The notes beneath the pieces are model-generated. The model did no database searches and was not told the origin of the DNA. It worked only from the letters and a program-made list of their open reading frames with translations. The translations under genes were made by a program, and so were the position numbers. Shown piece by piece: positions 1,117-26,737 of a DNA stretch of 64,000 nt. Each line of letters begins with the position of its first letter. Within the stretch, counting starts at the first letter, position 1. Origin of the DNA: Pocillopora damicornis (Eukaryota); assembly GCF_003704095.1 (NCBI RefSeq), contig NW_020843670.1, positions 62,001 through 126,000 of the forward strand, read 5' to 3'.

Positions 1117-3557
1117 TAAAATATTTGATAGAAGAAAAAATATAAATTTCCTATAATTTTCTCTTGCTGTTAATTCTAGAGAACTATGTGTTCATGTAAT
1201 CTTGGAGGAATTTAATGTTATGTTAAGTAATTTAAGTTGTATACAATCCTTCTATTTTCTTCTGCCTGTCACTGTTTTTACGGGATTAAGTACCGCCCCA
1301 TCCTTAAGTTATTGAAAGTCATGAAAAGATACATCGTAGAACAAGCCAGTGCAAACAGCGAGTCCAATTTCCCCATAAAAAGTGGAACACTATAGAACCC
1401 TATTACTATATACTATTCTAGCCATGTTGACTAATTTGTCATATGAACCAAAATGTTTACCTGCCTGCTGGTGCAATTTAGTGGAAGTCATGTTTTTATT
1501 CAAAACTGATAGTGGTTCATAATCAGAGCAGTATGCGAATAAAAACTTTATATTTTGCGTTATATTGTCTAACCGAAAGCAAATTTGAAGCACCTGTACG
1601 GGTACGACTCGGACGGGTCATTCTATTAAACTATCGTACTTTTCTGTACTTAGATATTCGTGTTGTGTGAGGAAGTATTATCTTTTGTCTCACGGTAATC
1701 ATATATTATATATATGGGTATTTTTGCTGGTAGTGATACAATACAAAATAGAGCAATCTGTATACGTGGTTAGATGTTTCCATAACTCCCTTTGTGTATT
1801 CGTCTTACGCAGAGTTTGGTATCCACGTCAAAACATTTGCATTAATTACATTAATTTGATCAGTATATGGCATCCTCTTTGATTGCATTAATTGTTTTAT
1901 GACCTCAGCAAAAGTTATGATTCGATACTGACCGAGGCATTTTATTGGTAGTCTCTCAGGACCTTATTCTCACTATTTCTGAAATTTCAACTCAACGCTG
2001 AAACCGTTCTTGAGATTTTTGAAGACGTGTATGTTTCCTCTTCAAGGAGGAGATGAATTCACACGCTTTACTTCAACACGCGGTTGATAGCCAGCCGGAG
2101 ATCCATGCACTTTGAACGCTTCATCGGAGAGTTTCACGTTCACATCTACTGATAAGTTGACCTCAACCTCGATATCACCACTTTCAAGTTCATAGAATTC
2201 CTCCTTGTTGATGTCACCAGATGTTTTCGGCGTCTTCCCGACGTGAAGGGTAGCTGATGCTTAAAAAGAGGGTTGTTGGATTGTCTTCGACCATGATTCG
2301 ACACTGTTTGGTCACTTTGGTGATTAAACCATCTCTAGGGAGTTCTGCTGTGGGCTGAAAGATAACATAGCCTTATAGTGGTCTCGTGGCTGCGTTAGTT
2401 TTGGGAGACATTCCAAATTTTTCCACGTGTGCTTTCTCGTCCTGCTGAAGAACCATATACAGCTTAAAATTTCCTTCCCTGTCCTGACGATTCCAGAGAG
2501 CGCTGGCAGTGCTTGTGTAAGAGTCTATTTTCACCAACACAGCGTCCTCGTACTTGGCATTCGTGGAATTGTGCTCTAGCCAGGCTGTTGCATAAATACC
2601 GCTGGAGCAGACAGCAGCTACAGTTTGCGAATTTTGAATCTGGACATGTAACTTAAGATCAGATGCACTTGATTCTGGAACTGTTGCCTTTGGTGTCGAC
2701 TAAAGTAGTATACCCATCTTTCGTGTTTTTAGAAAGGGGGTTTACAGCTTCGAATAGATCTGAGCTGTCTTTGGTCATGCCGTCCATTTTAATGGAAAAT
2801 TTAGATGCATCTCTAGCTAGTTTGTCTTGAAACAGTGTCGTTCGCGCCTTGGTTGCTGTTCCGCCATTATCTATTTTAATGTTGCTTCCAAGACAGACTA
2901 AAACGTTTTTGAAAAAGAAGACAGACTTCTTAAAGTGAAGTTTAACTTTTGGATACGGATGATCCTCGTAAAAGAATTGATATTCTGTTTGGTGGAAGTC
3001 CATGCCGAAAACTCCGCTGGATAACGGCTCTGGTCCTTTATAGGAAGCCCCACCGGCATAGGAAGGTGGCCTAATCTGCCATAAAGTCTAAGTCATCGTC
3101 GTCGCTCCAGGAACTTTTGTCCAGTCCCATCCGTTTTCTATATCGTGAGCTTTTAGCGCCTCTTCACTATTCGCTATCAACATTGAACCATGGCTTTGAT
3201 AGGTACCAAAGGCATTTTCTGGTGTTTTCTTCTTTGTGGAGCCCTCAAAGTCCCAGACACAAACCTATCGAAACCTTTCACTGTGACAGCCCAGTCCTTA
3301 CGACGATGTATTGAGAGAGCAGCAAAGTTCTTGGACCAGTGACCTTCAGGAGAGGGTTCATAGGTTGAGGCTTTCGACTTGAGTTGTAATGGAGGATGAA
3401 TTATATCGAAAGTATTATTAGAGATTTCTTTGGAATTCTATTTGAAAGTTCTTCTGAATAAGAAACACACTTCATGTTGTCGATAAAAATTGTTTTTCAG
3501 TCTAACCAGTGTTGAATTTTGCAACAATACTCATGTGACAGACACAAAAATGAATGA

Positions 3558-3724
3558 TATAGAGAATAATACATGGGCGCTCGTATATATGGAATTTCTC
3601 TTGATATCATACGAGTGAGATGTCGAGTTGAACACGAGAGAAGAAATTTCAGATCTACAAGCAATCATCTATTTTTTCCAGGGCTGGAAATCCTTGTATG
3701 ACAACGTAGCTTATATGATAAATT
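3558..3724. repeat. Internally deleted copy of a dispersed non-autonomous element; longer copy at 26803-27590 in opposite orientation
   Basis: Its ends (tatagagaataatacatgggcgc... and ...ccagggctggaaatccttgtatgacaacgtag) match the reverse complement of the ends of 26803-27590. Confidence 0.6.
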
Positions 3725-24480: not shown

Positions 24481-25317
24481 CTTGGCTACTAACGAATCTA
24501 TAGCTACATTCACTTTCATGACTTTTTTTATTAGTCGCTGTATAGGATGTCAATTGGAGAAATGACTGTGGTAGATTATGAATTAATGCAGGACAAAATC
24601 TCCACCCCCACCGCCCCATTAAAAAAAAAGAGCAACCCACTTCACTTGATGAGAGAAGAGTTGTATTGTTTGTGCATTGATTTGGTCGATTCACCATCTC
24701 TTGAGTGGGAGGTTTGTAGGTGTCATCTTTTTTGATGGACGGATAAAGTGGATATGTTTTTTGCTGACCTGTATGTCAAACACTTTGGCACCCTCAAGGG
24801 ATGCAAGCAGAAAGTCTCGTAAGAGACTTCTGCAATAAATTGTGAAATTAGATAACGATTCAGGTTTTAAGTGAATTTTGGATAGCAATTTCTTTTTCTT
24901 CTAACAGCTTTCCAAAAAATTCCTTCCCTGTAAAATACATAAATTCGAATGTCGTAGCAATTGAAATTAAACCATTTAACTTTTATGTAGACTGACATAA
25001 ACCTTTTGAGTGTTTTCATATCAAGAGACTAATTTTTAAGATATGAAACTATCGTAATGAACTCTTAAAACCATGTTTGACAGCTACAACTGCAATGAAT
25101 AGAAAAAATTCTAGAAAGAGACAGGTGTAGACCTCCATTTATTTTTTCACGTAATGTTCCGCATCCACCTAAATACTAACGATTGCTTTAATTCAGTGTA
25201 GATTAACATTTGGTGATTCCCACTGAGTTACATTAGTTCTCTATAGCATAAAGAGAGAGATATAAGACGATGAAGATCCAAGAAATCCATTTATTGTCCC
25301 CTTAGACAATATCCTGG

Positions 25318-26737
25318 TTATTTCTCTAACAATGAATCCGTTCTTAAGATTTTTAAACGCGATTATGTTCATTTTCCTAAGGGGGGGTAAGGAGGGAGAA
25401 CGAGGAGAGGAAAGCACGCGCTTTACTTCAACACGTGGTCGATAGCCAGCTGAAGGTGCAAGTACTTTCACCGTAGAATCAGGGAGGATCATTTTCACCT
25501 CCACTGATATAGTGACTTAGAGCTCGAGTTCACCACTTTCTAGTTCATGGAGCTCCTCCCTATTGACTTCGTATGGGATGTTTTCATGTCCCCGTCGACA
25601 TTTAAATTCAGGTCAGGGTAGCTGATGCTTAAAAAGACGGAATAGGAATTCTGCTCGACCATGATGAGACATTGCTTGATCACTTCTATGATCAAACCAC
25701 CTTGAAGGAGTTTTGGTGAGGGCTGAAAGATCACGTAGCCGTACAATGGAGTGATTAGTATGTTGCACCAAACTCTATCACAGGTGCCTTATCATCTTGT
25801 TGCAGAAGCGTGTACATGCACCAACTGATTCCTCTGTTTGCGCCTCCATATAGCGGTGGCAGTGCTTTTGTTAGAGTCTGTTTTCACGACAATAGGTACC
25901 CGTATTTCGCAGTCGTTGAACCATGCTCTAACCAGGCTGTAGCGTAGATACCGCTGGAGTCAACAGTAGCTCCAGTTTGAGAGTTTTGATTTTGGACATG
26001 TGCCTTGAGATCAAATGAACTTGATCTTGTAATGTAATAAATGTTGGCTTGGTGTCAACCAAAGTAGTGTGTAGAATGTTTTTAGAGAGAGGGTTTACAG
26101 CTGCGAATATATCTGAGCTGCCTTTTTGGTAACGCCGTCTATTTCAATGGAAAATTGAAAATTGTACCCCTTACCAGTTTGCTCTGAAATAGTATAGTTC
26201 GTGCTTTAGTTGTTTTTTGATCATTATCTATTTTAATGTTGCTTCCAGGACAGACTAAAACGTTGTAGAAAAAGAAGACAGACAGTGAAGCTTAATTTTA
26301 CGATACGAATACTTTTCGGGAACCATCCCATATACTCCGCTGGATAAAGGCTCTGGTCCTTTATAGGTAACTCCGCCGACATACGAGAGTGGACTAAAAT
26401 TTCGTGCCTTATTGAGCCTGATCTGCCATAAAGTCAAGTTCATCGTCGTTGCCCCAGGAACCTTTGTCTTGTCCCATCCGTTATCTATATTGTGAGCTTT
26501 TAACGCCTCTTCACTGCTTGCTATCAACATTGAACCGTGGCTTTGATAGGTACCGAAAGCATTTTCTGCTGTTTTCTTCTTTGTAGAGCCCTAAAGTTTT
26601 GTGTTTGACAAACCTGTTGAAACCTTTGACTGTAACGGCCCAGTCCTTACGACGATGTATATAGAGAGCAGCAAATTACTAGGATTAGTGACCCTCAGGA
26701 GGAGTGCTAGGGAGCTGCATGAGGCTTTGGATTTGAG
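25318..26737 (-). pseudogene. PL8 lyase-like copy D, orphan last exon
   Basis: Acceptor tttatag|CTCAAATCC at 26737. Homologous to 11080-12534 but has stops (EGH* where copy B has EGHW) and several frameshifts. No upstream exons found. Confidence 0.85.

What the first reader, a model, noticed from the sequence alone, without database searches (positions are those of the whole stretch)
1973..26737. Tandem array of bacterial-type chondroitin ABC lyase (PL8) genes domesticated in an animal genome
Seen: four copies or fragments with the chondroitinase ABC layout (Lyase_N, catalytic KPD..FHH...Y segment, Lyase_8 with W..E, YQSHG and GWDW motifs). They have GT-AG introns, an 82-nt signal-peptide exon, animal repeats in their introns, and flanking PLA2 and GPCR genes, which argues against bacterial contamination. 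Established: PL8 ABC lyases are characterised from bacteria such as Proteus and Bacteroides, animals normally degrade glycosaminoglycans with hydrolases (GH56), and chondroitin is a component of cnidarian nematocysts. Inference: a horizontally acquired, secreted, amplified GAG lyase system used in nematocyst, mucus or matrix remodelling, prey digestion, or as a venom spreading factor.
Basis: partly seen in the sequence, partly recalled or inferred. Interest (0 to 1): 0.9.

Follow-up and report, generated by a model that had tools for sequence, protein, structure and literature searches.

The report
Coral's bacterial-type chondroitin lyase gene cluster
This coral DNA holds one spliced gene, plus two broken copies and a fragment, for an enzyme predicted to cut chondroitin sugars; corals, anemones and Hydra share the family, which likely came from bacteria long ago and is already labelled in databases but apparently untested.

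Summary
The feature is real, but smaller and less new than claimed. Five pieces resolve into four units: one intact three-exon gene (1,196 codons by arithmetic), two pseudogenes and one 5' fragment. A mis-oriented contig (10348-16001) splits the intact gene; contigs of two runs bridge it. Both introns are spliced in RNA-type contigs. Domains, catalytic motifs and the orthologue's predicted fold match chondroitin ABC lyase (PL8). The same genome has further copies on five other contigs. GenBank/RefSeq already label homologues in stony corals, anemones, an octocoral and Hydra. A 2017 preprint reported GAG lyases in sponges, cnidarians and choanoflagellates and argued vertical descent. My trees give one cnidarian clade inside bacterial ABC lyases, which favours one ancient transfer (about 65%). 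They lack choanoflagellate and sponge rows, and the bootstrap run did not finish. Nine paper searches showed no enzyme assay or cell-type data. Most likely role: secreted turnover of the animal's own chondroitin matrix. This scan noted the family before on other DNA (e1-7769376).

The parts
18560..18641 (-). Intact gene B, exon 1 (82 nt; predicted signal peptide with a hydrophobic core)
   Evidence: ATG, hydropathy up to 2.7, GT donor; spliced joint in X1
18203..18559 (-). Gene B intron 1, GT-AG, 357 nt
16102..18202 (-). Gene B exon 2, first part: Lyase_N and catalytic (alpha/alpha) domain with the visible His/Tyr motif; the 843-N gap at 16220-17062 is bridged by 438 letters in an X3 contig
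10348..16001 (+). Contig placed in the wrong orientation; its start continues gene B from 16102
   Evidence: joint 10348/16102 on opposite strands in X15 and X3; flanking repeats become direct when it is flipped
10348..10403 (+). Gene B exon 2, last 56 nt
10404..11079 (+). Gene B intron 2, GT-AG, 676 nt
   Evidence: spliced joint in polyA run X10
11080..12534 (+). Gene B exon 3: Lyase_8 super-sandwich with WDFE, YQSHG and GWDW motifs; 484 codons and stop
   Evidence: covered by RNA contigs
1973..5703 (-). Copy A, pseudogene: exon 1 intact (5703-5622); exon 2 lacks orthologue residues about 285-626; frameshifts and stops; exon-3 acceptor reads AA; no assembly gap inside
20171..20997 (-). Copy E, 5' fragment: signal exon 20997-20916 and start of exon 2 (20555-20171), ending at a 100-N gap; may be a whole gene collapsed by the assembly
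25302..26915 (-). Copy D, decayed 3' part (end of exon 2, intron remnant, exon 3 from 26737) with several stops and frameshifts; no 5' exons found upstream

Best explanation
The window holds one spliced coral gene for a predicted secreted chondroitin ABC-type lyase (PL8), with two pseudogenes and a fragment from tandem duplication, in a family that likely entered the cnidarian ancestor once from bacteria and likely trims the animal's own chondroitin matrix. Shown: three-exon structure, splicing, domain layout, family across Anthozoa and Hydra, one clade among bacterial ABC lyases. Inferred mechanism: the signal peptide sends the roughly 1,200-residue basic protein into the secretory route. Chondroitin binds in the cleft of the (alpha/alpha) domain. 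A His/Tyr pair (equivalents of His454 and Tyr461 of 2Q1F) removes the uronic-acid C5 proton and protonates the leaving sugar, helped by the Asp398 equivalent. This beta-elimination leaves 4,5-unsaturated oligosaccharides. Inferred role, with odds: turnover of own matrix, mucus or surface coat, including nematocyst chondroitin, about 0.45; digestion of prey about 0.3; venom spreading about 0.1; another uronic-acid polysaccharide about 0.15.
For: Domains. All 3 PDB sequence hits are ABC lyases. The AlphaFold model of the Stylophora orthologue P0123 (82-97% identical over gene B's visible stretches; pLDDT 91.8, pTM 0.92) matches 2Q1F, 1HN0 and 7EIP first (E 1e-50 to 2e-44). Among 87 rows of the cnidarian clade the His454, Tyr461 and Glu628 equivalents are kept in 87, Asp398 in 86, His345 in 81 and Arg514 in 74. 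Splicing and the flipped contig; frame closes at 1,196 codons. Paralogues on four other contigs break at the same intron, orthologue residue 709-714. The clade has FastTree support 1.0 (392 rows) and SH-aLRT 99 (93 rows), with Hydra's group branching from Anthozoa. Hydra cuticle holds chondroitin (PMC3531485, passages). The genome gave no GH88 match, the enzyme bacteria use to finish lyase products (recalled), which fits trimming better than feeding.
Against: No activity was tested. In gene B the His345, Asp398 and Arg514 equivalents fall in N gaps and were not seen. The closest bacterial relatives are uncharacterised and, like the coral proteins, have His-to-Tyr spacing 8 rather than 7 as in the solved enzymes, so the substrate may differ. 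bioRxiv 10.1101/211789 reports GAG lyases in at least 18 of 21 choanoflagellates and in sponges and argues vertical descent. My trees hold no such rows and no AC-type outgroup; the careful bootstrap search did not finish; 12 of 28 'cnidarian' rows are unnamed. The sister group is weak in FastTree (0.65). The genome also has GH56 hydrolases at two loci, so it need not use a lyase for matrix turnover. The GH88 blank comes from an incomplete genome. The bridging contigs come from other individuals and may derive from a close paralogue.
Confidence: 0.68

Rival explanations
1. The lyase was inherited vertically from a pre-animal eukaryote and lost in most animals, so no transfer into cnidarians is needed.
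For: [quoted passage not shown] Only 150 of 1,092 representative hits were listed, and many rows are unnamed.
Against: That preprint scored the shared Lyase_8 domain only. The S. rosetta genes are called AC lyases, whereas the cnidarian proteins carry the ABC domains and this genome gave no PF08124 match. Every named eukaryote is a cnidarian. The next-best named hits are bacteria of many phyla.
Confidence: 0.25
2. The enzyme is a digestive or venom-associated lyase aimed at prey glycosaminoglycans rather than at the animal's own matrix.
For: Signal peptide; repeated duplication and decay, as is common in secreted digestive and venom gene families (recalled); PLA2-like genes next door; larger families in stony corals than the single Hydra cluster seen.
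Against: Adjacency is not evidence of shared function. No GH88 match to finish the products. No expression or proteome data were seen.
Confidence: 0.35
3. The proteins keep PL8 chemistry but act on a different uronic-acid polysaccharide, or paralogues have split substrates.
For: PL8 includes xanthan, hyaluronan and alginate lyases. Identity to solved ABC lyases is only 18-20%. The His345 equivalent is lost in 6 of 87 clade rows and Arg514 in 13 of 87, including the Hydra protein; two paralogues in this genome lack the His345 equivalent (L003, L004).
Against: The ABC-specific N-terminal and catalytic domains are present, and the best sequence and fold matches are all ABC lyases.
Confidence: 0.15
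4. The sequences are bacterial contamination, or the array is an assembly artefact.
For: Five N gaps lie inside the region, one contig is flipped, and near-identical flanks are repeated.
Against: Spliced GT-AG introns; GC3 of 0.42-0.43 against 0.43-0.49 for neighbouring host genes; orthologues on coral chromosomes of tens of Mb; copies differ by 11-28%. The assembly more likely under-counts copies.
Confidence: 0.02

Closest known systems
Cnidarian 'chondroitin sulfate ABC exolyase(-like)' gene models (Stylophora, Pocillopora, Oculina, Montipora, Nematostella, Paramuricea, Hydra)
   Same: Same family, domain order and signal peptide. The Stylophora protein P0123 is 82-97% identical over gene B's visible stretches.
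   Different: Nothing fundamental. These are automatic labels. The public model P0107 joins pseudogene A pieces to a PLA2-like gene and is probably chimeric.
Bacteroides thetaiotaomicron chondroitin ABC lyase II (2Q1F) and Proteus vulgaris ABC lyase I (1HN0, 7EIP)
   Same: Lyase_N + Lyase_catalyt + Lyase_8 layout; fold (target TM-score 0.75-0.78); His345, Asp398, His454, Tyr461, Arg514 and Glu628 equivalents.
   Different: 18-20% identity; about 170 residues longer; eukaryotic signal exon and introns; His-to-Tyr spacing 8 instead of 7; Asp-His in place of His-His at 344-345; activity untested.
Uncharacterised bacterial ABC-type PL8 proteins of Planctomycetota, Verrucomicrobiota, Latescibacterota, Armatimonadota and Bacillota
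   Same: Share the spacing-8 motif and the TADR and WD[FY]E-type motifs with the cnidarian clade. A Planctomycetota/Verrucomicrobiota-containing group is sister in both trees.
   Different: About 32-37% identity; no introns; neighbours include a second PL8 gene, a sulfatase and a polysaccharide lyase (3 of 9 neighbours scanned). The donor phylum is not established.
Choanoflagellate and sponge GAG lyases (bioRxiv 10.1101/211789; bioRxiv 10.1101/2020.06.28.176636)
   Same: Eukaryotic PL8 proteins with a Lyase_8 domain.
Animal GH56 hyaluronidases
   Same: Degrade chondroitin and hyaluronan; present at two loci in this genome.
   Different: Hydrolases with an unrelated fold; they leave saturated ends.

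Membership tests
PL8 chondroitin ABC lyase | Lyase_N + Lyase_catalyt + Lyase_8 domains in order | tested here: met
   Window pieces and whole orthologue P0123, all above Pfam cut-offs
PL8 chondroitin ABC lyase | (alpha/alpha) toroid plus beta super-sandwich fold with N-terminal beta domain | tested here: met
   Model of orthologue P0123, pLDDT 91.8; top Foldseek hits 2Q1F, 1HN0, 7EIP. The window protein itself was not folded because of its gaps
PL8 chondroitin ABC lyase | Catalytic His454 and Tyr461 equivalents, and Glu628 | tested here: met
   Visible in gene B at 16102-16219 and in exon 3; 87 of 87 clade rows
PL8 chondroitin ABC lyase | His345, Asp398 and Arg514 equivalents | tested here: inconclusive
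   Hidden by N gaps in gene B; present in orthologue P0123 and in 81, 86 and 74 of 87 clade rows
PL8 chondroitin ABC lyase | Beta-elimination on chondroitin and dermatan sulfate (A232 product) | not testable with these tools
   Needs recombinant enzyme
PL8 AC-type / hyaluronate lyase | Lyase_8_N (PF08124) catalytic domain | tested here: not met
   No PF08124 on P0123 or in the genome; NCBIfam chondroitinase-AC 24-29 bits against a cut-off of 1000
Host-integrated gene | Spliceosomal introns spliced in transcripts; host neighbours; host-like composition | tested here: met
Horizontally acquired gene | Animal clade nested in bacterial diversity with support, and no other eukaryotes beside it | tested here: inconclusive
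   Nested with SH-aLRT 99/95/100 in the quick tree and FastTree 1.0/0.65; root chosen by me; no choanoflagellate or sponge rows; no bootstrap or AU test; many unnamed rows
Tandem array of functional genes | Several intact adjacent copies | tested here: inconclusive
   One intact, two decayed, one cut by a gap; a second exon-3 type about 92% alike appears in RNA contigs and in P0001/P0002 but not among the genome's PF02278 matches
Venom spreading factor | Presence in cnidocytes or discharged venom | not testable with these tools
   No expression atlas or proteome could be read

The most novel reading that the evidence does not exclude
The last common ancestor of cnidarians took a chondroitin ABC lyase from a bacterium, separately from the AC-type lyases of choanoflagellates and sponges. 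It uses the enzyme to clear the chondroitin scaffold during nematocyst maturation, and stony corals later expanded the family into paralogues with split substrate preferences.
Probability: 0.15. Interest if true: 0.8.

Novelty: new member of a known kind. Interest (0 to 1): 0.45.

Why it matters
If the enzyme is active, cnidarians remodel glycosaminoglycans with lyase chemistry usually treated as microbial, alongside their GH56 hydrolases. A single transfer before the Anthozoa-Hydrozoa split would revise the vertical-descent reading of the 2017 preprint, and it can be tested at once in Hydra and Nematostella. A chondroitinase ABC that evolved in an animal secretory pathway may also interest people who use the unstable bacterial enzyme for nerve repair (PMC7438101, search listing only). 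The locus itself is ordinary birth-and-death duplication, and it shows how a draft assembly can split one gene and fuse a pseudogene into a neighbour's model.

Tried and rejected
Four working genes in the window: rejected; one is intact. A head-to-head (inverted) arrangement: rejected as a flipped contig. A natural Lyase_8-PLA2 fusion (P0107): rejected as a likely chimeric model, since it strings frameshifted pieces of pseudogene A onto PLA2-like exons several kb downstream. Contamination: rejected. AC-type membership: rejected. The careful IQ-TREE search did not finish in two runs, so only SH-aLRT values are given. Contig depth over exon 3 in X18 was two to three times that of nearby DNA, but the tool warns that depth is no copy number, so it is not used as evidence. 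Copies A, D and E had little or no RNA cover; the runs were picked with exon 3 of gene B, and D lay outside the laid stretch, so this is not used either. Naming unnamed tree rows mostly failed: 10 of 30 clusters looked up carried an organism name. The ESM Atlas listed only bacterial or unrecorded clusters, which says nothing on range. Passages in PMC13044578, PMC4425862, PMC6214176 and PMC8006597 were not about this family. The eLife version of the choanoflagellate study (PMC6040629) has 0 occurrences of 'lyase' in its main text. Look-ups of earlier findings by sequence and by place were blank.
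Full report
Setting. The window is 32-44% GC animal DNA with six N gaps. It lies at G000:C305:62001-126000 in a 234-Mb draft genome. Neighbours are rhodopsin-type GPCRs, BTB/KCTD genes and a PLA2-like piece. A named Pocillopora damicornis protein (P0107) matches this contig at 90-100%, so the animal is a Pocillopora-type stony coral.

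Observation. Pfam finds Lyase_N, Lyase_catalyt and Lyase_8 in 9 or fewer pieces: 8 of the 10 stretches scanned matched one of them. tblastn with the full-length Stylophora protein P0123 maps five pieces. Copy A (minus, 5703-1973) has an intact signal exon but lacks orthologue residues about 285-626, has frameshifts and stops, and its exon-3 acceptor reads AA; no gap lies inside it. Piece B (minus, 18641-16102) covers residues 1-591 with one gap. Piece C (plus, 10348-12534) covers residues 694-1194. Copy E (minus, 20997-20171) stops at a gap. Copy D (minus, about 26915-25302) is a decayed 3' part.

B and C are one gene. Contigs of two runs (X15, kind not on record; X3, RNA by guess) join 16102 to 10348 on opposite strands. 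The X3 contig is 1,202 nt and also spans B's 843-N gap with 438 letters. Exon lengths plus these spans sum to exactly 1,196 codons, against 1,195 for the orthologue; the 302 letters across the second gap are inferred from the contig's length. Flipping 10348-16001 also turns all the inverted flank repeats into direct ones. So the locus is a head-to-tail series D, E, B, A. The contigs come from other individuals and could derive from a close paralogue; either way the contig is mis-oriented.

Splicing. Intron 1 (18559-18203) is a joint in X1 (RNA by guess; 1 of 4 runs). Intron 2 (10404-11079) is a joint in polyA run X10 (1 of 4 runs). Contigs from polyA and oligo-dT libraries cover exon 3 and the 3' flank. 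Of 24 runs listed, 19 hold part of exon 3, from 8 studies; 8 runs were laid. A second exon-3 type, about 92% alike, occurs in these contigs and in P0001/P0002 but not among the genome's PF02278 matches, so the assembly may have collapsed a copy.

Rest of the genome. PF09093 gives 13 matches on 6 contigs, PF02278 12 and PF09092 14 (lower bounds, not copy numbers). Genes on C473 (two), C2193, C196 and C1708 break at orthologue residue 709-714, the place of intron 2. The C290 copies have more introns. The genome also has GH56 at two loci and gave no match to GH88 or PF08124.

Family. Named homologues come from Stylophora, Pocillopora, Oculina, Desmophyllum, Montipora, Actinostola, Nematostella (four clusters), Paramuricea and Hydra, many labelled 'chondroitin sulfate ABC exolyase'. 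A search of 1.84 billion representatives gave 1,092 hits, of which 150 were listed. No named non-cnidarian eukaryote appeared in any list.

Chemistry. The three PDB sequence hits are all ABC lyases. The model of P0123 (70-row alignment, pLDDT 91.8) matches the same three first, then xanthan, AC and hyaluronate lyases. PMC12088678 (passages) lists His345, His454 and Tyr461 as catalytic and Asp398 as neutraliser in 2Q1F. The roles of Arg514 and Glu628 are recalled; their positions were counted. In the 87-row clade His454, Tyr461 and Glu628 are invariant, Asp398 is kept in 86, His345 in 81, Arg514 in 74, and all six in 69. In gene B three of the six are visible and intact; the other three lie in gaps.

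Origin. From 515 candidate sequences, 392 covered enough of the core to be kept. FastTree gives an 87-row clade (support 1.0) that holds all named cnidarians. Its sister, at 0.65, is a 7-row group with a Planctomycetota and a Verrucomicrobiota MAG. I chose 93 rows for IQ-TREE (LG+C20 PMSF, quick search): clade 99, with sister group 95, inside an 82-row group at 100. The Hydra group branches from the anthozoans at 97-100. All 87 clade rows have His-to-Tyr spacing 8, shared with 205 of 305 other rows, while the solved enzymes have 7. Limits: the root was set by me on Proteus/Vibrio-type rows; 12 of 28 'cnidarian' rows and many 'bacterial' rows are unnamed; the careful search did not finish; no choanoflagellate, sponge or AC-type rows were available. 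I put a single ancient transfer at about 65%, vertical descent at about 25%.

What is in print. bioRxiv 10.1101/211789 (passages and all of section 10) reports GAG lyases in at least 18 of 21 choanoflagellates and, among animals, only in sponges and cnidarians, and infers vertical descent with loss. It scored the Lyase_8 domain, which AC and ABC types share. The eLife version has no 'lyase' in its main text. bioRxiv 10.1101/2020.06.28.176636 (passages) calls the two S. rosetta genes AC lyases and candidate transfers. PMC3531485 (passages) shows chondroitin in the Hydra cuticle; nematocyst chondroitin I saw only as a reference title there (Yamada 2007). Nine searches listed no paper devoted to cnidarian ABC lyases. 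The library lacks most subscription journals, some lists were cut (25 of 39, 15 of 596), and paper reading closed before I could see any supplement; coral HGT tables and cell atlases may list these genes.

How it most likely works. Shown: gene structure, splicing, domains, clade. Predicted: secretion (hydrophobic signal exon; orthologue pI 9.5) and fold. Inferred: His/Tyr beta-elimination on chondroitin outside the cell. For the role I favour turnover of the animal's own chondroitin matrix or coat (0.45) over prey digestion (0.3), another substrate (0.15) and venom spreading (0.1). The grounds are retention across Cnidaria, chondroitin in Hydra structures, and no GH88 match; all are weak.

Verdict. 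A real, domesticated gene family with an interesting and under-studied history, but already annotated and already mentioned in a preprint. Novelty: new member of a known kind. Interest 0.45.

Noticed in passing
window 1-1100 (+): Degenerate PLA2-like exons (Pfam PF00068 E 4.5e-5 for 1-162, below cut-off). The usual His-Asp catalytic pair (recalled) is not seen in the translation.
   Followed up: partly
L090:3165-5686 (-), G000:C305 about 55165-57686: A four-exon PLA2-like gene that the public model P0107 fuses to pieces of pseudogene A; probably a chimeric annotation. It also appears to lack the His-Asp pair.
   Followed up: partly
window 30368-39230 (+) and 51004-52005 (-): Four single-exon rhodopsin-type GPCR genes, three in tandem.
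   Followed up: partly
window 40011-43127 (-): Two tandem single-exon BTB/POZ (KCTD-like) genes.
   Followed up: partly
window about 8955-9002, 15430-15850, 5180-6080, 3480-3730: Short high-copy repeats with many loose ends in RNA and DNA contigs; a 100-nt inverted repeat at 5374-5473. Not classified.
   Followed up: no
L001, L002 (G000:C2193) and L096 (G000:C1708): The same kind of assembly damage at other lyase loci: duplicated and inverted fragments beside 100-N gaps.
   Followed up: partly
L003 and L004: Paralogues that lack the His345 equivalent while keeping the other motifs, hinting at split substrate range.
   Followed up: partly
P0153-P0159, P0250: One anthozoan subclade is cysteine-rich (20-29 Cys against 4-15 in the other cnidarian rows) and has altered motifs around the catalytic Glu.
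   Followed up: no
L015-L077 (Latescibacterota MAGs): Several Latescibacterota genomes carry two or three ABC-type PL8 paralogues each.
   Followed up: no
window 44364-48260 and 59325-60044: Long open frames of 170-245 codons on either strand that were not scanned against any family.
   Followed up: no
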